In this document: in pieces, positions 4,445-62,030 of the stretch
How the letters are laid out: each line of letters begins with the position of its first letter
Numbering within the stretch: the stretch's first letter is position 1
NCBI GenBank assembly: GCA_030295235.1
Contig: AP026130.1
Span: 62,001 to 126,000 of the forward strand
From: Fistulifera solaris
Lineage: Eukaryota
Reading direction: 5' to 3'
Length of the DNA: 64,000 bases
Notes under the pieces: model-generated
Databases searched by the model: none
Seen by the model: only the letters and a program-made list of their open reading frames with translations
Told to the model about the DNA's origin: nothing
Program-made: the position numbers and the translations under genes

Positions 4445-4726
4445 TGCTTGATTGCGTAATTCTTTTTTATGTCAAGTACAGACGATGATTCGACTGCCCG
4501 TGAAAGTTAGCGAGGTGAGATTTCTTCATTCTATTACCATCACTTTTCCTATACATTGTACGAACTGGGACTATCAACGATTAGTTCATTTGGGTAATTT
4601 GAAAGTAAAGGATTTCGTAATTAGTTTTTTTTGTACAAGTGGGATAAGCAAGATAAACGGGGCTCCTTTATTTAGATCAATACGTGAAGTGCAAACCTAG
4701 CTTTTCTAGACGACTTGGGAAAGAGT

Positions 4727-6060
4727 TTCTTTACGGAGGTCTACGTGTTTTCTACGCGTGGACAATACAAACGTTTCATTAGTGCTTCTTTTGGATGTTT
4801 TGCACGAAAAAGCACTCGCATATCGTTGTGTGATGCACAATAACAACGATGGAGAAGTCGAAAATGATGCCGTTGCCCAAAAACCCCAAAAAATGGAAGC
4901 AATCAAATTGTTCTATGTCCGGGTACCCCCTCTGTCGTTAAATTTCCTTACGGAGGTCTACGTGGTTTCTACGCGTGGACACTACAACCGTTTCATTAGT
5001 GCTCCTTTTGGATGTTTTGCACGAAAAAGCACTCGCATATTGTTGTGTGATGCGCAATAACAACGATGGAGAAGTCGAAAATGATGCCGTTGCCCAAAAA
5101 CCCCAAAAAATGGAAGCAATCAAATTGTTGTGTATCCGGGTACCCCCTCTGTCGTTAAATTTCCTTACGGAGGTCTACGTGTTTTCTACGCGTGGACAAT
5201 ACAAACGTTTCATTAGTGCTCCTTTGGGATGTTTTGCACGAAAAAGCACTCGCATATCGTTGTGTGATGCACAATAACAACGTTGGAGAAGTCGAAAATG
5301 ATGCCGTTGCCCAAAAACCCCAAAAAATGGAAGCAATCAAATTGTTGTATGTCCGGGTACCCCCTCTGTCGTTAAATTTCCTTACGGAGGTCTACGTGTT
5401 TTCTACGCGTGGACAATACAAACGTTTCATTAGTGCTTCTTTTGGATGTTTTGCACGAAAAAGCACTCGCATATCGTTGTGTGATGCACAATAACAACGA
5501 TGGAGAAGTCGAAAATGATGCCGTTGCCCAAAAACCCCAAAAAATGGAAGCAATCAAATTGTTCTATGTCCGGGTACCCCCTCTGTCGTTAAATTTCCTT
5601 ACGGAGGTCTACGTGTTTTCTACGCGTGGACACTACAACCGTTTCATTAGTGCTCCTTTGGGATGTTTTGCACGAAAAAGCACTCGCATATTGTTGTGTG
5701 ATGCGCAATAACAACGATGGAGAAGTCGAAAATGATGCCGTTGCCCAAATACCCAAAAAATGGAAGCAATCAAATTGTTGTGTATCCGGGTACCCCCTCT
5801 GTCGATAAATTTCTTTACGGAGCTCTACGTGGTTTCTACGCGTGGACACTACAACCGTTTCATTAGTGCTCCTTTGGGATGTTTTGCACGAAAAAGCACT
5901 CGCATATTGTTGTGTGATGCACAATAACAACGTTGGAGAAGTCGAAAATGATGCCGTTGCCCAAAAACCCCAAAAAATGGAAGCAATCAAATTGTTGTGT
6001 ATCCGGGTACCCCCTCTGTCGATAAATTTCTTTACGGAGCTCGACGTGGTTTCTACGCGT
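4727..6060. repeat. Tandem satellite, 217-bp monomer, about 6.1 copies
   Basis: Near-identical units; equivalent ORF starts at 4758, 4975, 5192, 5409, 5626 and 5842. Confidence 0.97.
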
Positions 6061-6657
6061 TGACATTGTAAGCGTTGCATCAATTCTCTTGTAGGATATT
6101 TTGGCTGAAACAGTCAATTGTCATGTTCAATCGACTTTTTCTGTAGGTCGAACTAATGATGATGACAGAAAATAATATAGAGGATACTTCTCATTATTTT
6201 TTTTTAATAAAAAAATTATTGACCTATTTTGACACGGGACCGATAGCAAACCTGAATGATTCTTCTTTGACATCATCCGAATACGTCCAACGTCCAACGT
6301 CCAACGCACAGTTGCTAAAAATTTATTTAGTCGAACATTTTTCTCAACGCATTTCTTTTGTACTGTTTTGTATCTACAACGTCTTGTCAGTGCGCCAAGG
6401 AGAGTGAATTGGCGCTGCTTCCATTTCACCCCAAAGTTTGCACCGCGCAGCCGTTGAGAGGCAAGAAAGGTGCCTCGATAATACACTCTAAGTGAAAGCA
6501 TTCCTTTGAATAGGTGCGCTGTGCGTCCTTTTTGACACAAACGAACGTGAGAGGTGCTTTGCCTCGAATCTTTCTTTCTGGGGTGGAAATAATAGAAAAG
6601 AAAGCTCTTTTTGTATTCGTTCTCAGCTCATTCACTTCATTTATCGTCAACACAACA

Positions 6658-11190: not shown

Positions 11191-11638
11191 TTGCGGGAAA
11201 GTTTGAAAAGAGGTGACCAACGCGTGACAAAACTACTGTACTAGAGCAACAGTCTTGATATTTCCTAAGTTGACTTTGATCGAGCCACAAATACTGTCTG
11301 CGTAACTATCATTTGCGTGATCGCGATCTAAATGGCTGTTGGTGTTTTGTACGTAATGATGTGTAAGAACCCCACAACATCACACACGCACACCACAACA
11401 TCGATCTGCGACATCTTTCCTGTGAAAATTATTTGTGAAGTCCCAAGAATTTTGTCGAAGACTTCGAATCTCACAAAAAAAATACATTGAAAGAAATAAA
11501 TAATTTGAATGACGATGATTAATTAAGACATAGAAACTCAGTAATAGGTGCCGTAAACTGTAAAGGAGGGCGAAAATTGCTAGAAATTGTGTCCTCGAAA
11601 CACATCGAAATAGTTTGCAACTTTAACTTTCACACTTA

Positions 11639-11889
11639 GCTGGATCATAATCCGGCGTACAAGTGTCCTAGCTAGATATACGCCGGATCGTGCTCCGGAT
11701 ATTTCGTGAATTAGCAGTCCCGGATTCGAAAATCTGGCGCATAATCCGGCGTTCATCTTGCTCTGAGAGCTTCTACGCCGGATCATGCTCCGGTTTATCG
11801 TGAATCAGCAGTCCCGGACTTGGGATTTCCGGATCATGATCCGGCGTTCATCTAGCTCTGATAGCTTGTACGCCGGATCATGCTTCGGC
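11639..11889. repeat. Palindromic ~94-bp repeat cluster (ATCCGGCG...CGCCGGAT), MITE-like or subterminal repeat
   Basis: Three hairpin units. The first (atccggcgtacaag) is the inverse of the last (cttgtacgccggat). Confidence 0.6.
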
Positions 11890-12368
11890 TACAACGTGAC
11901 TTCCGGTAAAAGATAAGAAATTAACTAACTAACTTATCACGCAAATGATATCATTGCGTAGTCAAAGCTTTGGACTTTTGGGGGTCAAGGGTAACTAATT
12001 ATCTGCTAGAGTTCCTTCAGAAAACTAAAAGATGAGTTTGCGATGGTGCATGATGCAGTTGGTGTCAACGTATTCTCCCCTTGCACCCTTACATTCTCCT
12101 CCGACTTGTACAATTTTCTTCAGAAATTTTGTTGCATGGCTCCTTCAACGGAAATTTCCATGCAACGGCAGGCGCGGTACGACGGGTTGTGGACAGACTA
12201 GAGTACCGCTGGTGACCGACATGACATGGCCAGGGGGCTCCTGGTCAAGGGCCAAATGGCACGACTAAAACGAAACGAGTCCCGTACGTTAGGGAAGTGA
12301 GTCGTCGTCGTCGACAGAAATGCTAACCTTAGACACAATCACAACAGCAATCTTACAAATCAAACCTA

Positions 12369-18587: not shown

Positions 18588-18811
18588 TTCAGTATACAGC
18601 GAAGCGGAAAGACAGGAAGAAGAACCGAACATTCTTATTATTAGAAAAAGAAGGATTCACAGCGATAGGAATTTTGAAAATAGGGGATGGATAATACAGC
18701 ATAACAACAAAAATGGTTCTGTTGTTGCGAGTTGCGAGATCGCGATCATGCCGAAACTGAAAATAAACGCGTCGCGTGCATTTTTTCAATGCGGTCGACG
18801 CAAGGACATTG

Positions 18812-19251
18812 TTCATGACTGAACAGCAGCCATGGCGAAAACGGACAACGCTTCGCGCCTATAGTGAATTTCGAACACAACAGTCTTCGAGGCTCTTCGA
18901 CATCTTGAATCAAAATGTGCGTTGCAAATGCTTCAGTAGGCTAATGATTTGCATTCACGACAGAAATAAATCAACAATCTTGCAATAGAAATGTAGCTTG
19001 ATCACTCGAAGGAATATCTAACCATGACTGAAATGCAGTCGTGAAAAAGTAACCTTCTCTTTGGGCTACAGTAAATACGAAAGATATCATTTCTCTAGCA
19101 TTGTTGAGCTTGAATCTCTGAAAAGTCTCCAATACAATTTCTAGATTGAAAGGTGATCAGAGTGACTCTAGAATTGCAGACGGAAGCTTCAACTGGGATG
19201 CAAAGGGACCAATCCAAAAATCGGTTGCTCATGACTGAATTCAGTCTTGAA
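18812..19251 (+). repeat. Dispersed ~0.45-kb element, copy 1 (three TCATGACTGAA hairpin motifs)
   Basis: Motif cores at 18814, 19023 and 19230. The first spacer aligns with the copies at 31.3 kb and 61.5-62.0 kb. Confidence 0.75.
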
Positions 19252-19715
19252 AGCGTCAATTAACTAACACTCCGACCTACAGTGCAAGGCAGGTCGTCTT
19301 TGACACGTGTAACGCCGACAACACAGTTGCAGTTTCATTTCGTTGGTTCCCAAACGCGCGTTTCACACGAGATACAAAATAAAAACGCTTCTTACTTCGC
19401 AACGGATACTACTGCCATGTCCGAAGAACAACCCCTATCCCAACTTCCCACCTTGGAATCTCCGAAATTCGTCGCGCAACACGTGATGAAACGAAAAAAC
19501 AACAAACAAACAATTGCGAATGCGCAAGATGCAACAATTGTATGCAAGAATTGAACAATCGCCGTTCATGCGCTTTTTTTCAGTTACAAACGTTCACAAT
19601 CGAAAGCGACCCAAGGATGATTTGTCAAGGCGAAGTTGTCTTTTGTTTCCGATAATATTACAACGACAAACACAAGCAAACAACATTCCTTTGTCATCCT
19701 CTTGAAAATTGAAAA

Positions 19716-22529: not shown

Positions 22530-23140
22530 ATTCCAGAATTTCTGGAACAGTACAAAGTTTCTTCTGAAGGGGACACAGAATTTTTACAGCTAACACAATC
22601 CTTAATAAATTATTCCAAATACCAAGAACACAGTCTCCAACATTTCTGGGACGTCTAGTCTAAATAAGATCTTTATGCTACCAGGTAAACCGCGCGTCTC
22701 CAAAATGAAAGGAACTACCAGGTATAACAACAAGCACCTCTATCTGTATGTGCCTAAAAAACACCTGGTCCAGAATATCTGGACCAATCACACAGAATTT
22801 CTGCAAGTCCATAAGCGATTTCCAGAAATTCTGGAATTGACACGAAATTGTTGGATGACCGAAAATACTCGGTCCAGAATGGTTGGTAATTGGTTGGTTT
22901 CAAAACAAAATTTCGGACCGTTCGACGACAACACTTACTAATTTTTTCCTGAACTACTACAGAGCACATTTATGCCTTAAAAACACCTGGTCCAGAATAT
23001 CTGGACCAATCACACAGAATTTCTGTATGACCCTAATCGATTTCCAGAAATTCTGGAAATTGTCAGGAAATTGCTGGTGGCGACTGGCGACCGAAAATAC
23101 TCGGTCCAGAATTTCTGGACCTTCCACAGAGTTTCTGTAA
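22530..23140. repeat. Degenerate ~220-bp tandem repeat rich in CCAGAWWWTCTGG palindromes
   Basis: aaaaacacctggtccagaatatctggaccaatcacacagaatttctg occurs at ~22758 and ~22979, with a weaker unit at ~22530-22620. Confidence 0.75.
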
Positions 23141-26572: not shown

Positions 26573-29124
26573 ATGAAACTGACGGCTCATTGGGGATCCG
26601 TCTTGTATTTGTCTTGCTCATTGTTCTTGTTGCATCCGATTGCGGCCGCTCTTTGTGAAACTACTACCGAAGGACTCACTGGACTGGGAGAAGAATTTAC
26701 CTTTCCGTCGAAACTATCGATTGTCGATTTCTCGGCATCGGTGACTTACACTACTTTGGCACAAGGTAAGAGTATATGAATGAATTTAGTGTCTTGTTTT
26801 TTTATTGTAAGCTCGTTCTCTTACTCATCCTTGTTTTGCTTTTAGGCGCAACACCCTTTGTCAAAATCATCGCCGCGTCGGAACAGCCGGTCGTTTCTCT
26901 CGGCGAAGACGGTACACTGACGATTGCCCCCGAAGGCTGCAGCGTAGAAGGAGCTCCTGTTGAAGGCGTTCCCTCGGCCCCATCGCCTGTACAAGCTCCT
27001 GTCGAAGGAGGAACCGACGGAGGTGCTCCAGCCGTTGCACCGGAAACTCCGACCGCCAGTAGTGCCGCAACAACCGCTACACTCTTTTCTCTTCCGTTCT
27101 TTTGCCCGTCAACAAGATGACTTCGTTGTTCACGACGTTGACGCTGCTCTCTACCTTTGCCTACGTGCAGGGTTCGAATCATGAAGGCTCATGCATTCCG
27201 ACTTTGACCATTGAGATTGGTGTGCCGGAAACGGCACCTGTTCGACAGAACTTTGGTGAAACCGACCACTACTTGGCCGCGACGGTCGACACTGTGACGT
27301 GGGGATACTACGATCCGACGGCGACGGCCGAGACGGCGGCCTTGACGATGGCCTCGGGTGAGACGGTAACTGTAGAAGTCATTACGCATCATTCGAGTCA
27401 TGATTACGCAAAGATGATTCGTGGTGATCCGGCGATTGAAGAAATCTTTTACTGGTCGGACAACCAAACAGAAGCCACGAAGAATGAACCCAAACTCCCC
27501 GGAACGGGTGTCCATTTGGTGACGGGCCCGATCAACGTAGAAGGTGCCATGCCCGGTGATATTCTTCAAGTCGACATCCTTGAGTTGGATCCTCGTTACA
27601 ATGTAAGTCGTGTGTAACCGTGAAATCACTTGTCGCTGGTTCGTTCGTCTCATTTGTTGTTCTTTTGTATATCATATTGTTTCCTTCAAAAGCCCGTTAC
27701 TGGACGCTGCTACGGAACCAATTCTCAAAAGTTTGCCGGATACCAGTATCGCGTTGGCGAAAAGCGTGATGGAACTCCCTACGTTCGTACGGGTGGAACG
27801 GAAGCAATCACGGTGTTTGAATTCATTGAAGACGATGCTTCCAACATGTTGTACGGGGCGCCTGTTTACATGTAAGTCATTCTCTCTTGATGGATTGTCG
27901 TATTGCTTGTCGTGTCTATCGTGCTCACAGAAATGTCCTCTATTCAGGTATCGTTTCCCCAACATGACGGATCTGGACGGAAACAACCGCACGATTGATA
28001 ACAATCCCTCGGTCACTGTTCCACATGAATTCAACCACGGCTACAATGGAACACTTTTGGAAGAAGATCCCATTGTCTACCCTCCCGGATACGATGCGAC
28101 TTTTGTAAGTACAAAAAGGCAACAACGATGGTCATGGTCGATGAGATAGCAAATAATAATTGTCACTCACACTTGTTTCCCGTTCACATAGGTCACGGAC
28201 GAAGGCGGCATCTTGTATTTGAGCCCGGAACAAGCCCAATTGGACTGGAAAATCCCATTGCGTCCCCACATTGGTACACTGGCGGTCATGCCCAACAATA
28301 CCGGCAATTACTTGGACGAAGAAGCGCAAGGCGGTGCCAGTACCATTCCTCCGTCCCGCTTCGGTGGCAACATTGATGATTGGCGCATTGGCAAGGGTGG
28401 CACCATGTATTATAAAGTGGAAGTACCCGGAGCATTGTTGTTGGTCGGAGACACGCACGCGGCGCAGGGTGATTCGGAATTGGCCGGGACGGCCATGGAA
28501 ACCAGCATGACGGCCAAGTTGCGTGTGACGTTGCACAAGGCGGATAGTTTGCCCAAGATTGTGTCGACCGTCGAATGGCCGTTGTTGGAAACGTCCGACA
28601 AATTTGTTGTGCACGGATTCGCGTTTGCGAATTATTTGGATGAATTGGAAGATCCGTCGACGATCTTTGATGAAGGTGCTAGTTTGGATCAGGCCATGCA
28701 AGACTGTTTTGTCAAGACGCGTGATTGGTTGATGGATGTGTACGACCTGTTGGAAGAGGAAACGATTGCGCTGATGACAACTTCAGTGGATTTCGGTATT
28801 ACGCAAGTTGTAGATGGTAACTGGGGTGTGCATGCGGACATTCCGAAATGGGTCTTTGATGATTCTGGAGCTCCCTACGATTATTCTTGCACAACTTCTC
28901 AAGGACCTGGTCGTCGTCGTCGTCGTGGCCTCTTGAATCATCGTGAACGTCGTTCTTTGTTTGCCAAGATGGTGGGTGATGATGTCGAAATGGATGTTTA
29001 TGCTTCTCAGTTGTACAACAAAGTGACCGCCTCTTGCGCCGCCTGTGGAGATCATCACATGCGTGAATTGTTGGCGGAGAAGTTGGTTCATGCCAAGTTG
29101 GATTTCGCTCATGCGCGTGCTTAA
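26573..29124 (+). CDS. Acetamidase/formamidase family protein with secretory N-terminal extension (5 exons)
   Basis: HLVTGPINVEGAMPGDIL, PPSRFGGNIDDW and GDTHAAQGDSELAGTAME motifs. GT..AG introns at 26766-26845, ~27603-27691, ~27872-27947 and ~28105-28191. Probable frameshift at ~27100. Confidence 0.8.
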
Positions 29125-31166: not shown

Positions 31167-31312
31167 TCAGTGTAGTTAGCTATGCACATCTTAATATGTG
31201 ATATAAGTCGTCTAGTAGGAAAATGTGTACTGTGAAATTTTTCAAATGGGCTATGGTTGGCTTTTAGCTATTACTCCATTTTCTCGAGAAGCAGATACTC
31301 AGATACTCATGA

Positions 31313-31766
31313 TTCATGACTGAAACGCAGTCATGGTGAAAAACTGAGTACACTTAGCACCTATAATAGACACTTGACACAGCGACCTCCGAGTCGTCTG
31401 TTCCATATCTTGATTAAAAAACGCATTGCAAATGTTGCGGTCGGCTATTGTTTTGTATTGAAGACAAAAGTACTTTCATGATCTTGTAAAGGGAACAAAG
31501 GTTGTAAGTCACAATGGTAGGTGTTCATGACTGAAAAGCAGTAATGGTGAAAAACGTCGTCTACGCTACTGGTCTATATTGGTAACTAATACCCCTTTAT
31601 CTTCCGTAAGGAATCGATTCACGGGGTAATAAATGCTACGGAGTATTTGAATTTATTTCTGTATCATTAAAAAGCTCGAAGCTTGTTCCATCGCGCAGGA
31701 TGGACGAAAGGCATGATTTTAGAGTGAGGATCCAAAATGTGATTCAGGACTGGAATTTAGTCGTGG
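31313..31766 (+). repeat. Dispersed ~0.45-kb element, copy 2
   Basis: Motif cores at 31315, 31526 and 31745. Spacers align with copy 3 (e.g. ggatggacg..aggca.tgatt). Confidence 0.75.
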
Positions 31767-31933
31767 TACGTTTGGAGACGCGCAACGACATGATCACGAA
31801 ATCCCAACCATCGAACATAAATGAAAACAAGGAAATAATGATGTGACGACAAATAATAATAATAATAACAGAGTTTCATAAGTGAGAGGGTTGCAGAAGA
31901 GATAACAGGTAAATATTATAATTGATCAGAATT

Positions 31934-35883: not shown

Positions 35884-36020
35884 GGCCGTGTTTAACAGAC
35901 AAACGATATTGTTATTGCATTCAGCAACGCTGACAATAAAGAAAGTTGCGATTACATGCAACAATGAGCAATGAGCTTCTTTTTCTTGCCGCCACATAAA
36001 AACAGAGAACAGCCTCATCA

Positions 36021-36259
36021 CTCGTGTCTGCAATCCAGTCTTGTTGAAAACGAAGTACACGTTGGAGTATAGTAAACAGGACAGTGCAACATGCAGTTCA
36101 GTTTCAACGTAACATAGTGAATGGTTCCCTTACAATGCATCGAACACTAATGTTTAGTGATTTTGGACAACCTGCCCGACGAAATGAAAGTTTCGACAGA
36201 AGCAACCGTTCCAATAATGAAACAATCCTACCTCATGACTAAAAAACATCGAGTCTTGA
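36021..36259 (+). repeat. Dispersed element, degenerate partial copy 4
   Basis: ctcgtgtctgcaatccagtcttgttgaaaa at 36021 and tcatgactaaa at 36233; the cores are 211 bp apart. Confidence 0.45.
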
Positions 36260-36491
36260 AGAAATACGGACAAGACTTTTGTTGATAGTAAACTGGAGTA
36301 GGTCTATACTTTTTACTGCAGTGTATGTTTGTCCCGCAAGATGATCCAATCACATTTCATTCTTCACCAGAATAATTCCAACAACAACACACTTGTCCAC
36401 CATCGCAACGCTTCCACATTTACCTGCTACCATAAAAACACAATTGAAAGCAGCATTTCTATTCATCACTCTCTTTGTTGTATTTCTCTCG

Positions 36492-38004: not shown

Positions 38005-38159
38005 GCTTAGTTGATTCTAATAATGATTGCCGACAATATTGTGGCTTTTTTTTTGACGTGTTTGTTTTTGATTTTTATTGTTGCGTCGTTTCGTTTTGAA
38101 CCACTTTGACGGACTATTATGTGGAGTGTACAATGCCTTTCGTGACGGTTTCATTCACG

Positions 38160-38335
38160 ACTCCAGATAGTCTGGGGGACGTTGTTTTCACGTCTCCAGA
38201 TAATCTGGGGGTGAGGAGTTTTCAACTGTCCAGATAATCTTGGGGCGCGTTGTTTTACGTCTCCAGTTAATCTGGGGAAGCGACGTATTGACCTGTCCAG
38301 ATAATCTGGGCGTGCGGTTTTTTCACATCTGGGGT
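38160..38335. repeat. Array of five CCAGATAATCTGG palindromes at ~33-36-bp spacing
   Basis: Copies at ~38163, 38196, 38229, 38263 and 38296. Confidence 0.75.
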
Positions 38336-44036: not shown

Positions 44037-44297
44037 TGTCGATGTTCTTGTTATTCGTATTTGTTGCCCTGTTGCAAATCAATTTTGCTCGAAAATGAGC
44101 ACAATTTTGTGGTTGGACCAAGTCGCTTGTGCCCTGGCCTCATCGTGACCGGGTTTGGCTGCGGACGAGTGCGGATTTGTTTGGGCTTTTTGATGACTGT
44201 CATAATTCGCCATAATTCTGGCTTATATCGGCTACAAATTATGTAGAAGAATATGTAGAAGACAGTGATATTCCGGAAAAGTCGGGATGAGGCCGAA

Positions 44298-45808
44298 TTC
44301 TGAGTTCTGAGAGCTGGATCTGAGATCTGAGAGACAGTTCACAGTTCTTGAAGTCGCAAGTCGCAAGGTTTACTCCTACTCCGTATTGTTTATTGTTTAT
44401 TGTCAAATGGTCCATGCCACGTTTGGGTATTTCGTTTACAGTTACCCGTTACAAATTACGGAGTACAGCATTGCAGCTTACAGCTTAGAGCTGACGTGTA
44501 CATAGTTCCTCCGAAATCTGGAGTAATTTACTGTACAGAATCCTAACCGGCCGATCGACAATCGACAAGCGGTGATGAGTGATAAGTGATGAGTGATGAG
44601 CTCATCAGTGATGAGTGATGAGTAATGAGTAATGACTCTCTTTGGGCCTTGGGCCATTGATAGGGTGGAGGGTGGCATTGGCCCTCGAGCTGCGACTGTC
44701 CGCGAGACTCATAGTTTTTTTTATTAAAAGTGAATACCTGGTAGCTGGTAGTGACGCGCGTAACTCGTAACGGACATGAAAAGGGAAGCTTGAAGCTTCG
44801 TGCGTAGCGCGTTAGCGCTTAGCTTGCCCTCGAAGCTCGAAGCATGAACCTATTATTTTTAAAAATAAAGAGTAAATAATAAAGAATGAGGAAACGTGGC
44901 ACGTGCTGGGAGTTTTTTGTCTTCTTGTCTTGCGGCGAAAAGGCGAAGTCGAAACAAAAAAGCATTAAGTAAGACGTAAGACTGACTCAGGATTACTAAA
45001 AGGTCTTTTGGCAATTTCCATGAAACTACTCTGACCTCTGACTGTGGGCCGTGAACCGTGAACCGTGAACAGACAACAGACGGGCAATGCGGAGAGTGCG
45101 GAGTGCGGAGAAGTCCGATTGATTGATTGACAATCTTTGAAACTTGTAATCTGAGCTGGGAGCTGGGAGTTTTTAGTCGCTATTCGCCAGATTCCCGATC
45201 TCACCTTATCACCTATCAGTAGGGTTCCGGCCGGGTTGAACCCTTCCAGGCCCGACCCCTATCTGGACGGGTCGGATGGGTTTAGCGGAAGGGTTCGTCT
45301 CCAGAAACCTTCCTCGGACGGGTATTCATAACCTATTGATTTAGTGTTTCTCTGAGTGCCACGTGGATTTAGATGATGTTCTAGACGGCGCTACAAGCGT
45401 GAATTTAATGATAAATAGCATTGGAGTACCAAATCATCACTTATTTATTATAGGTTGATGACTTGGGATGACAGCATTGTGAAAAAGTTGCCTGAAACTG
45501 GCAAAATAAATTAAACATCGATGGAATTGTCATATTCTTGGGCATCGCAATATTTAGTCATGAAAAACGAGAGGCTTTATCTTTCCGCTATATGGTATAA
45601 ATTAACGTTGATTTCTCATTGAAAATCGAGTGTTTGAGGGCCGTCCACAAAATTTTCGCCAGCCCGCCGGAAGTCGGACTGAACCCTTCCGGCGGATGGG
45701 TCCGGAAGGGTCGAAGAGGGCCTTCGGCCCCTTCCAGTGGACGGGTCCAAAAGTCGAACCCGGCCGGAACCCTACCTATCAGCCGTAAGCCGTAACTATC
45801 ACCTATCA
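44298..45808. repeat. Tract of about 20 different 7-bp tandem duplications
   Basis: For example ttctgag x2, acagttc x2, aagtcgc x2, cagctta x2, gtgatga xn, ttgggcc x2, ccgtgaa x3, gccgtaa x2. Confidence 0.85.
45220..45774. mobile_element. hAT-type MITE, 555 bp
   Basis: Perfect 18-bp TIR TAGGGTTCCGGCCGGGTT, 8-bp TSD CCTATCAG (45212-45219 and 45775-45782), and subterminal ACCCTTCC/GGACGGGT repeats. Confidence 0.93.
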
Positions 45809-47646: not shown

Positions 47647-48687
47647 CTACATTTCTTCAGCTGCATCTACAATTTCGTTCTTCTTAGATAGCAAACTGCC
47701 GCCCCATTTCATTGCAAAACTAGAATGATCTCGCAAGCATTCCCATTGCGGTCGCGTCGTTGATGCGCTAGTCGTCGCCCAAGTTTCCTCATTCTTCGTA
47801 TACTCTTCCAGTAGGCCATGCAGTTGCCAATGCTGTACATAGTGCCGCAAAACAGTTCCTGCTCTTGACAGACGTGTCCATCGTGTAAGATCATCGAAGT
47901 CGCATCGAATTGTCGTCCATTGAGCGGAATGGGATGCACGGCCATTTCTTCCTGTGACGGAATAATTTTTCCATCGAATCATCCATTAGCAGTGTATTGT
48001 GGCGATTCCACAAGGGATACTGAATCCAGACCTTTTGTAAATCCTTTTGAAACAGGGGACTCGCGTTATTGTTCATTGACAAGTCATCGTGGGTGGCCAG
48101 GCATTGATCTTGTCCCCACACAAACAAAAAGGTCGATACCGGAATCTGTAGCTGTTCTAACAAAGCATGTACCGTTTTTCGTTTCGCCGAGGTCCACAAG
48201 GCCAAACACACGTTGGAAGATTGCCAGTGTTGCAAAAAGGCGTGCAAGTGCGGACGGGCAATCACCGGTGTTTGCGCGACATGAGCATCGATCGGTCGGT
48301 ATTCGATGGTCCTATTTGCAGTTTCTATTCTTTCCTTTGATTTTCGTATCCGATGACATAATATTCCGTTCAAGTCAAGTATTAACAGCGGCTTGATGTG
48401 AATGTGACAATTTTGATGACTATCGGCAGGAGATGAGGCTGTCGTCGTCACAACACGAATTATATTCTCGTCCTTCTCGGGTAAATGTAAAAGAGTCGCT
48501 CCTAAAGAACATTGTTCGGCACATTGAATGAGTCGATTGATAGCTGGACGTGCTTTCGCTTCTTGAAGTGCTGCAGCGCGCTTTTCGGAACGGCTCCAAC
48601 GTTGCTTCTTCTTTTCGTGGTGGCTGAGGTCGTTGCATTCGTTAAAGCGTTAATGCTACAAATCACACTCGAAGATGAAGAAGACAT
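47647..48687 (-). CDS. NIF/FCP1-like HAD phosphatase-domain protein (frameshifted)
   Basis: LLILDLNGILCHR, RPHLHAFL, LWTSA, VWGQDQC, KDLQKVW and NTLLMDDS. Start codon uncertain. Confidence 0.7.
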
Positions 48688-49165
48688 GAGAGAGTAGATA
48701 GATTGTTGAAACTTTTTCCTTCTACACAATCTTGTTCGAAGGAAATGCATGTTATGTACAAGTATGTTGGGTTGGCGGCCATTGTCATTATTATTTCGTG
48801 GTACTATGTGCGAGCACAATCCTTCAGCATTTCTGTCTGGGCACGGCGTTAAATTATCCCAGAAAGGGACTTGCGCGCACGCCGGTAACTTTAGTGTCGT
48901 AAATCTCTACATCCCGGACAGGCGAGATAGCCGTTGCTTTATGTATAAAACTGGATCAGACCCGCGATACTAAATTTGAGTACAGTGAAAACCGTTCAGA
49001 CTCGTCCGATGTCTCAACGGCTCTGTTGTAGATTATCTGGTCGCTAAAAGCCGCAACCTGTTTTCTTGCAAGCAGATTGCACACTAACTTACAAACAGCA
49101 ACACAAGAAACTTCTATGTGCACAATACCCTGGTAATGTGCAATGCATGTGCTACAAGAAATCTT

Positions 49166-49790
49166 CCAGCAAGTTATCGCGGACTCGCGATAAATATCCC
49201 GAGCTCGCGATAATTATCGCGGATATTTATCGCCTATCCGGGATATTTATCCCCGGCACGCGATATTTCTTTTGAATTCCAAATTCCATTTCTGCCCTAT
49301 TGCCTCGAAAATGAAATTCAGCGCACAGAACGCATTAGAGTTTTGCGAATAGCCTAGAAAAAACGAAGACACGCTTGCAACTTGCAACTGCAACCGATCA
49401 AGCACTTTCAAATATCGACCACTCTTGTTCTTGTCACTTGTCGTTCATCTGAAAAAGCTCCTACTCGCTCCAAGAAAAGTCACCAGCAACAATCTTACGC
49501 GCCTCAGTCACTCGGCATTAGATATACTTCTTGCGCACAGCCATGACAAGGTGATGCTCGTGTTGCAGTTGTTGTTAATAAACCTTACGAAGTACGCAGT
49601 CGTTTGATAACCTTACTGCAGAACGTTTAAGGTTGCGAGGGCCTTGATTGGCGATGGAATTTCATGCAGCGCCAGACGGAATCTTACTTATCATCTCCGG
49701 GCGATAATTATCGTGGATAATTATCGCGTATCCGCGATAAATATCCCCGATCCGGGATAATTATCGCCGGTTGAGATAATTAAACGCTGC
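49166..49790. mobile_element. Degenerate MITE-like element with GATA(A/T)(A/T)TATC subterminal arrays at both ends
   Basis: Clusters of gcgataattatcgc / gataaatatccc at 49170-49257 and 49688-49782. Imperfect CAGC...GCTG ends; no TSD seen. Confidence 0.5.
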
Positions 49791-50727
49791 TGCCGAGAAA
49801 CATCGCTTGAAAGACAATCATATTTTTCAGTTACGTCAATGTGATCTACTCCTAAATCCTGAAAATCGCTAAAACACCCAAAATTGAAGCTCTTTAGGCC
49901 ATTTCTACTGAGTACTATTTATCAGAGATATGTATAAGTCTTTTCTTCCTTGATGTTTCCATTCAGTCGATTCGGATCGTATCGGTTACCAAGAGCTACA
50001 GACTGTTGATAGTGTTTTCCCCATTGCTGTTCGCCACATATAGACGTACTGTTGAAAGGTCAGTCCGATGACGGTGAATGACGGATAATCGTCTTCGCGA
50101 TAATTTAACGCCGTGCCCTGTATCAAAATAAATACTATGGTGGATAGTGTAGACTCACTTATCCACGACTGCACTTCAGTCATGAATCCATTTTCTTTCG
50201 AGCTTATTATCGAGCGACAATGCTGCCTACAATTGTTTGTCAAAAAAGTTCTTGAGCTTCATTTGTTGCTATTGCAATGAGATAGGCTTAAGCAGCGTTG
50301 TTCCAGTCAATCTCATCGAAATGAAGCGGACCCGCAGTACTGTAACTTTTAAAACGGAACATTCTCTCCTTCTTGCTCAGTCACGCGAAATGCCTTTACT
50401 GTAACAGTTTTTTGAAAGCAGATGATCAGAGTGAATCAGAGAAATTAACACTTCCGAAAGTCTTTCAAGATTAAAGTTGCTTTTTCTTAGGTCGGTTTAA
50501 TTTTGGAAGCGTTAACGCTTAACATCACACTCGAAGATGGAGTAGACACGAGAAAACTGGTTGTTGAAACTGTTTCATTCTACAGCTAACAAGCTTGTTC
50601 GAATTCAATGCAAAGCGCCTGCGCATGAAAAGCAAAGGGTAATAAAGAAAAACGACCAAAGCAAAAGTAAAAAGGCAGGTCCACTCAGGAACTGCGGAAT
50701 CAATTAGATTAATTCATTCCTTCTTTG

Positions 50728-61337: not shown

Positions 61338-61539
61338 GATTCACTATTGATGGCTCGTAGTGTTTTGCAGGTTAACATAATTGCAATGTAATTGCACGGA
61401 AACAGCTGGGATTATATAAAGAAAAAGGCAAAAACAAAATGTCTTCTTGCGTCGCCCACACAGGCGTCGCCAACAATTTGGTGAGAATGTCGCTGCGCGT
61501 CTCACGGTTGTATAGAGCCAAATGTTAAATGTTAGTTCA

Positions 61540-62030
61540 CCTTTACCACGACTAACAAGCTTCAGTCATGAATCGAATATATATCCTTCTCAGAATCATT
61601 GCCTACCGTCCATCCGGCGTGCTCGGGAAAGAATGCAGCTTCTTACGGTGAAACCTAAAATACAGCAGCATTTTTAAGCCATGAATCTATTTTTTACGAT
61701 TAAATGAGGGCGTCCTACTATTGATATATAACCTAGAGTGTAGAGTACCTTTTTCGCCACGACTGCTTTTCAGTCATGAATCAATACGCTTGCGACTTAT
61801 CATCTTCGTTCATTTTGCAAGCTAAATGAATATTTTTAGTCTTTATTGCAGTGCGATAGCCAACCGCAATAATCGCAAAATATATTTTAATTCAAGACGT
61901 CGAACAGCCTCAGAGACTGCAGTATCATGGATTTACTATAGGCGCAATAAAATCTTGTCCGCTTTTCGCCACGACTGCTTTTCAGTCATGAATCCATATC
62001 CTTGTGACTTCTTATCTTCGTTCATTTTGT
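61540..62030 (-). repeat. Dispersed ~0.45-kb element, copy 3 (reverse orientation)
   Basis: ttttcgccacgactgcttttcagtcatgaa at ~61751 and ~61963, with a variant ending at 61572. Confidence 0.75.

What the first reader, a model, noticed from the sequence alone, without database searches (positions are those of the whole stretch)
18812..19251. Dispersed non-coding element with a hairpin motif every ~210 bp, four copies, each 5' of a gene
Seen: the consensus TTCATGACTGAAAAGCAGTCGTGGYGAAAA (stem CATGACTG/CAGTCGTG) recurs at 18814/19023/19230 (+), 31315/31526/31745 (+), 61990/61778/61570 (-) and, degenerate, 36023/36234 (+). Spacings are 207-219 bp. Spacers are homologous between loci (gcgcctatagt.aat...gaggct.ttcgac.tcttgaat.aaaat) but much more diverged than the motifs. 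Each copy points toward a start codon ~170-470 bp downstream. Inference: preferential retention of motif and spacing suggests a protein-bound, nucleosome-phased cis-element or an old exapted transposon. Four copies in 64 kb would imply a large family.
Basis: partly seen in the sequence, partly recalled or inferred. Interest (0 to 1): 0.8.

Follow-up and report, generated by a model that had tools for sequence, protein, structure and literature searches.

The report
Dispersed diatom repeat with conserved palindrome
A hybrid diatom carries many short runs of a 220-base non-coding repeat between its genes; its small palindrome seems to decay more slowly than the rest and the repeat avoids the region around a probable centromere, but it does not point at genes as first suggested.

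Summary
The motif (CRTGACTG-N5-CAGTCRYG) heads a ~220-bp monomer that forms arrays of 1-10 units, always between genes, in a 52-Mb two-subgenome diatom: 927 exact motif hits (control 0), very roughly 2,400 loci. Arrays still amplify and move (units up to 99.6% alike; 96% between contigs), yet most loci examined predate the subgenome split. Between subgenomes the palindrome arms are kept better than the spacer (232/244 against 335/416 sites; 8 of 13 pairs usable). There is no stem covariation, so a dimeric protein site is likelier than an RNA hairpin. Refuted: orientation to genes (17 toward, 21 away; 19 nearer a start, 19 nearer an end). No terminal repeats, target duplication or autonomous partner was found. 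New here: 34 loci in ~375 kb and none in the next ~378 kb, a zone that surrounds a candidate centromere; ~400-kb gaps recur on other contigs (P about 0.01). Best reading: a mobile euchromatic satellite-like family with a constrained protein-binding box. This scan apparently noted the same family on other DNA before.

The parts
18801..19284 (+). Array of three motif modules (18814, 19023, 19230) with two spacers, between a PPR gene (-) and an MFS gene (+); all three modules are present at the homoeologous site
31299..31770 (+). Array of three modules (31315, 31526, 31745) between a Rubisco-LSMT-type gene and a DUF819 gene; the homoeolog keeps modules 1 and 3 and has the middle one partly deleted
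36012..36296 (+). Degenerate two-module array (36023, 36234); the first module is shared with the homoeolog
50110..50299 (-).
61527..62007 (-). Array of three modules (61990, 61778, 61570) between two cyclophilin-type genes; the homoeolog has unrelated sequence of similar length here
18814..18834 (+). Example of the 21-bp dyad: 8-bp arms around a 5-nt asymmetric spacer
18848..18870 (+). Example of the moderately conserved second box (ACACTT..CTATAGTAAA type) at about +34 to +55 from the motif start

Best explanation
A dispersed, euchromatic, satellite-like repeat family. Shown: one ~220-bp monomer (21-bp dyad, second box, ~160-bp spacer) forms short head-to-tail arrays in intergenic gaps; arrays expand and homogenise locally, and short pieces move between chromosomes without fixed ends or target duplications, often fused to other palindrome arrays; after insertion the dyad arms decay more slowly than the spacer; the family is missing from a ~350-kb zone around a candidate centromere. 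Inferred: local expansion is by unequal exchange or slippage; dispersal is by recombinational repair (interlocus gene conversion or reinsertion of small circles); the dyad is bound as double-stranded DNA by a dimeric sequence-specific protein, in the manner of a CENP-B-type box, which keeps it under constraint whatever its orientation to genes; the empty zone reflects low recombination or special chromatin near the centromere.
For: Single monomer family with 41 adjacent spacings of 177-238 bp, most at 215-222. Within-array identity 70-99.6%; 96% over 269 bp between C4 and C6 with unrelated flanks, and 92% between C2 and C22, above the ~80-85% of homoeologs. No shared termini or target duplication in the loci examined. 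Upstream flanks shared with other palindrome arrays at about 9 of 85 loci. Consensus-matching sites kept in the other subgenome: arms 232/244, spacer 335/416; four-fold sites 78.3% of 17,836; P 7e-4 against an assumed 11% per-lineage rate. Spacer 5 nt in 117 of 151 motifs and almost no two-sided stem changes in 97 motifs. 0 of 85 loci overlap a called exon; orientation random. 34 loci against 0 across the domain border, the empty side holding the lowest-GC and highest N_box32 site in both homoeologs.
Against: No long classical satellite array was seen (longest 10 units). A subfamily (12 of 85 loci) has a fixed 3' end motif, 23 exact hits in the genome, which is more like a transposon end. Array ends cluster near the module (21 of 35 starts at -24 to +4). 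The conservation test used 8 of 13 syntenic pairs, the pairs were chosen where a profile detected the module, and 8 more loci had no partner, so slower decay may be overstated or caused by gene conversion. Of 22 motif slots beside spacer-found units only 10 were intact (0-1 mismatch). No binding protein was identified. The centromere is a prediction from GC content, on one chromosome pair.
Confidence: 0.55

Rival explanations
1. Central tandem repeats of a non-autonomous rolling-circle transposon (Helentron/HINE or DINE-1 type), or subterminal repeats of a DNA transposon, now mostly eroded; the dyad is conserved because the transposase needs it.
For: Variable numbers of internal repeats, a distinct last unit and a fixed 3' motif in 12 of 85 loci; no target duplication; the unit strand folds the hairpin better than the other strand in the common variant (-6.1 against -3.6 kcal/mol); HINEs carry central repeats (PMC4067079, passages).
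Against: No inverted partner of the 3' motif within 1.5-2.6 kb upstream of 8 termini, and no T-run flanks; the hairpin is in every unit, not only at the 3' end; Helitron_like_N found nothing, though that search is uninformative; a mobility signal would not be conserved after insertion.
Confidence: 0.22
2. A host cis-regulatory module (enhancer-like or snRNA-type promoter: dyad plus TATA-like box) duplicated to tune neighbouring genes.
For: 60 of 63 loci with both neighbours called lie in gaps that hold a gene start; arms are constrained; fixed dyad-to-box distance.
Against: No orientation or distance bias; convergent gaps are rare and short anyway (9 of 74 in C11); the whole 220-bp unit is what multiplies; the family is absent from ~378 kb with comparable intergenic DNA, and the 61.9k copy is replaced by unrelated DNA in the homoeolog.
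Confidence: 0.13
3. A neutrally decaying repeat: apparent motif retention comes from ascertainment and from gene conversion seeded at the most similar stretch, and the empty zone is a generally repeat-poor region.
For: Some young units have broken motifs; 5 of 13 pairs were too diverged to align; other palindromic repeats are also scarcer in the empty zone of C11 (9 against 2 blocks; 105 against 41 short inverted repeats).
Against: Loci whose spacers score only ~20 bits keep motifs with 0-1 mismatches; arms 95% against box 84% and spacer 80% in the same alignments; in C12 the other repeats hardly differ between zones (72 against 64).
Confidence: 0.1

Closest known systems
Euchromatic short-array satellites of Drosophila (1.688 and Rsp-like; PMC7403614, passages read)
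   Same: Small clusters near genes, homogenised within a locus and diverged between loci, fused to unrelated satellites, turnover at orthologous sites, spread without fixed ends
   Different: No large heterochromatic block seen here; a strongly conserved dyad in each monomer; missing around a candidate centromere; unrelated sequence
Bivalve satellites BIV160/Cg170/phBglII400 and nematode satellites with CENP-B-box-like motifs (PMC5139131 passages; PMC3694981 abstract)
   Same: Diverged monomers that keep two conserved boxes; junctions grouped near a palindrome or box; short arrays and single monomers dispersed
   Different: Cg170 arrays sit inside recognisable Helitron elements, which were not found here; no likeness to the CENP-B box was tested
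Helentron-associated HINE / DINE-1 elements (PMC4067079, passages read)
   Same: Non-coding, high copy, internal tandem repeats, no target duplication
   Different: No subterminal inverted repeats, no single 3' stem-loop and no TT flanks found
Centromere/ARS consensus motifs of Fistulifera solaris (bioRxiv 10.1101/2021.11.10.468027, sections 6 and 7 and passages read; supplements closed)
   Same: Same kind of genome; dispersed motif family; shares only a short word (GACTGAA) by eye
   Different: Separate family: 117 hits, not detected by the unit profile, interspersed with this family on C1, and present inside the zone that lacks this family on C11

Membership tests
Dispersed euchromatic satellite DNA | Head-to-tail monomers of one family | tested here: met
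Dispersed euchromatic satellite DNA | Local homogenisation with divergence between loci | tested here: met
   70-99.6% within arrays
Dispersed euchromatic satellite DNA | No fixed termini or target duplication | tested here: inconclusive
   none in most loci, but 12 of 85 share a 3' end motif
Classical satellite DNA | Long (many kb) heterochromatic arrays | tested here: not met
   longest array seen has 10 units; only the first 100 of 927 hits were listed
Helentron/HINE (DINE-1-like) | 12-15 bp subterminal inverted repeats | tested here: not met
   no inverted partner upstream of 8 termini; flanks limited to 1.5-2.6 kb
Helentron/HINE (DINE-1-like) | 3' stem-loop and TT flanks | tested here: not met
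   letters after the 3' motif are not T-runs
Helentron/HINE (DINE-1-like) | Autonomous Rep/helicase partner | tested here: inconclusive
   PF14214 found nothing, but rang in no control genome either
MITE / cut-and-paste transposon | [quoted passage not shown] | tested here: not met
Core promoter element | Fixed orientation and distance to a gene start | tested here: not met
   17 toward and 21 away; 19 nearer start and 19 nearer end; gene calls are model-based
Structured RNA family | Rfam match or compensatory stem changes | tested here: not met
   0 Rfam hits in the window; 2 two-sided changes among 97 motifs
Nucleosome-phasing element | Positioned nucleosomes at the array period | not testable with these tools
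   no MNase data available
F. solaris centromere/ARS motif family | Match to the published motifs | tested here: not met

The most novel reading that the evidence does not exclude
The dyad is the binding site of an unknown diatom chromatin protein, and a self-spreading 220-bp repeat has seeded it at thousands of places along chromosome arms while one ~400-kb centromere-containing domain per chromosome stays free of it: a sequence code that marks arms as against pericentromeres (for recombination, replication timing or chromosome folding), the reverse of ordinary satellites. If so, the gaps would predict the unmapped centromeres of this genus.
Probability: 0.12. Interest if true: 0.8.

Novelty: new variant of a known kind. 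Interest (0 to 1): 0.45.

Why it matters
Diatom regulatory and structural DNA is poorly charted, and centromeres of this oil-producing species were predicted for only 8 of 22 chromosome pairs (bioRxiv 10.1101/2021.11.10.468027, section 6). A very abundant, partly constrained dyad gives a concrete bait for finding its binding protein, and its exclusion zones could serve as centromere or recombination markers. If both points fail, it is an ordinary unannotated repeat that should be masked.

Tried and rejected
Gene-pointing promoter element: rejected. RNA family: no Rfam hit, no tRNA called in the window. Tandem 7-8 kb repeats on C17 that carry the motif are gene duplications with no recognisable transposase reading frame by inspection. 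The neighbouring HNH-AP2 nuclease gene as partner: its 16 other matches do not lie next to listed motif hits, including on C1 where the list is complete. Site-specific integration at the dyad: array ends vary. TRIM/LTR-like structure: no conserved TG..CA ends or target duplication seen. A CRESS-virus-like origin nonamer in the second box was considered from recall; only a 3-bp stem, dropped. Anti-correlation with the published ARS motif: 10 of 31 hits in the largest gaps, 7.7 expected. The 217-bp array at 4726-6065 and the 222-bp pair at 22.7 kb are unrelated to the unit. Expression: no RNA holder on record; two runs guessed to be RNA cover nearby genes and not the arrays, which shows nothing about silence. 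No exact 23-mer in the metagenome or viral collections, with near genomes possibly left out. A first end-mapping run used too lax scores and was discarded (redone in 58). An apparent second gap on C11 (907-1331 kb) was broken by a later hit. Literature: a five-term search for diatom dispersed palindromic satellites gave 0 papers; searches listed nothing on this family by title or abstract start; subscription papers and bioRxiv supplements were not visible.

Full report
Setting. The window is G000:C11:62001-126000 of a 51.7-Mb eukaryotic assembly. Window proteins match a second contig, C12, in the same order at about 85% DNA identity, so the genome has two subgenomes. It carries a motif published for the allopolyploid diatom Fistulifera solaris 117 times; earlier scan notes give the same name.

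Observation. A fifth copy lies at 50.1-50.3 kb on the minus strand. Genome-wide, one 24-mer has 178 hits at one mismatch and the degenerate 21-mer has 927 exact hits, some counted on both strands, with 0 for the reversed control. In 754 kb read contiguously, 13 exact hits correspond to 34 profile-detected loci, which extrapolates very roughly to 2,400 loci.

Anatomy. Motif-to-motif units from 32 non-redundant examples align over their whole length: one monomer of about 219 bp. It holds a 21-bp dyad, a weaker second box about 34-55 bp from the dyad start, and a spacer. Of 44 neighbour distances below 700 bp, 41 are 177-238 bp and three are 417-538 bp. The '210-bp spacing' is therefore the monomer length. 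The dyad spacer is 5 nt in 117 of 151 motifs; among 97 distinct motifs the arm positions are nearly invariant, changes are one-sided, and two-sided changes number 2. The common variant folds better on the unit strand, but nothing shows selection for pairing.

Mobility. Arrays range from 70% to 99.6% unit identity; a 269-bp piece is 96% identical between C4 and C6 with unrelated flanks, so copies moved after the subgenomes split. Of the five window copies, three are shared with C12, the 61.9k copy is replaced there by unrelated DNA, and the 50.2k copy lies in a stretch missing from C12. A wetland metagenome holds the 18.8k and 31.3k regions nearly unchanged. No common 5' end, inverted termini or target duplication was found. 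Twelve of 85 loci end in a shared 16-bp motif that resembles a neighbouring palindrome family, and about nine have such arrays upstream; this fits fused satellites moving together, as described for Drosophila 1.688 and Rsp-like (PMC7403614, passages), and leaves a transposon origin open.

Position relative to genes. Genes were called with a codon model that agrees with Pfam strands in the window. None of 85 loci overlaps a called exon; 34 come from the contiguous C11/C12 pieces (homoeologs not independent) and 51 from loci picked by searches. Of 63 with both neighbours called, 22 are in divergent, 38 in tandem and 3 in convergent gaps; in tandem gaps 17 point toward the gene start and 21 away, and 19 lie nearer the start and 19 nearer the end. 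The gene-pointing claim fails.

Constraint. Four-fold sites are 78.3% identical between subgenomes and element flanks 78-80%, arms 93.7% where aligned. Counting sites that match the family consensus in one subgenome, the other keeps 232 of 244 in arms, 290 of 346 in the box and 335 of 416 in the spacer. Against an assumed 11% change per lineage this gives P 7e-4. Limits: 8 of 13 pairs were usable, 8 loci had no partner, and pairs were profile-selected. Units found by spacer alone (11 hits, 0 in the control) have intact motifs in 10 of 22 slots, including beside very diverged spacers, and broken ones beside some young spacers. I read this as moderate evidence for about two-fold slower decay at a subset of loci.

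Chromosomal pattern. There are 34 loci in C11 52-250 kb plus C12 50-228 kb and none in C11 250-446 kb plus C12 228-410 kb, with similar amounts of intergenic DNA. The empty zone holds the lowest-GC 2 kb and the highest N_box32 count of both pieces (C11 394-397 kb, C12 362 kb), with stacked published centromere/ARS motifs on C11. These are the criteria that the paper used to predict centromeres (section 6); its supplementary coordinates were not visible. The next listed hits are at 600 kb on C11 and 723 kb on C12. Position lists for 12 contigs (complete for C1, partial for the rest) show largest gaps of 376-632 kb on nine, combined P 0.009, with homoeologs not independent. Other palindromic repeats are also scarcer in the C11 zone but not clearly in C12.

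Mechanism. Shown: monomer structure, local amplification, dispersal, intergenic location, random orientation, slower decay of arms, one large empty zone. Inferred: spread by recombinational repair or small circles, a dimeric protein on the dyad, exclusion through pericentromeric chromatin or low recombination. It works like a euchromatic satellite with a conserved box (PMC5139131 passages; PMC3694981 abstract). It fails the tested HINE and MITE criteria (PMC4067079 passages).

Verdict. Real, abundant, not found in the papers searched, and apparently noted before by this scan on other contigs (letters of those notes are hidden, so identity rests on their descriptions). A new variant of a known kind; interest 0.45.

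Noticed in passing
window 4726-6065: Unrelated young tandem array, 6.2 copies of 217 bp at 96% identity; nearly the same period as the studied family but no sequence match
   Followed up: partly
window 22530-23140: Another palindrome family (CCAGAA.TTCTGG / CAGAATTTCTG type) with a 222-bp duplication; very abundant in the laid DNA runs and often fused to the 5' side of the studied arrays elsewhere
   Followed up: partly
window 38154-38330: 34-bp tandem repeats related to that palindrome family
   Followed up: no
window 11637-11902: 95-bp tandem units with CCGGATCATG.TCCGG palindromes
   Followed up: no
window 49154-49268 and 49701-49767: GCGATAATTATCGC-type palindrome clusters inside the ~5-kb stretch that is absent from the homoeolog and also holds the HNH-AP2 gene and the fifth copy
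   Followed up: partly
window 48624-48726 and 50486-50584: Diverged direct repeat (76-80%) that looks like a duplicated gene 3' end
   Followed up: no
G000 C11 394-397 kb and C12 about 362 kb (L094-L095, L111): Candidate centromere pair: lowest GC, N_box32 peak, stacked published motifs
   Followed up: partly
G000 C17 802-841 kb (L031-L035): Five tandem 7-8 kb duplications with a 117-bp coding repeat, each carrying two motif modules
   Followed up: partly
window 20483, 20608, 27099-27345, 30240: Single-base insertions in laid contigs relative to the assembly suggest assembly frameshift errors in genes
   Followed up: no
window 44240-45070: Cluster of 7-bp tandem duplications, already noted by the scan
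   Followed up: no
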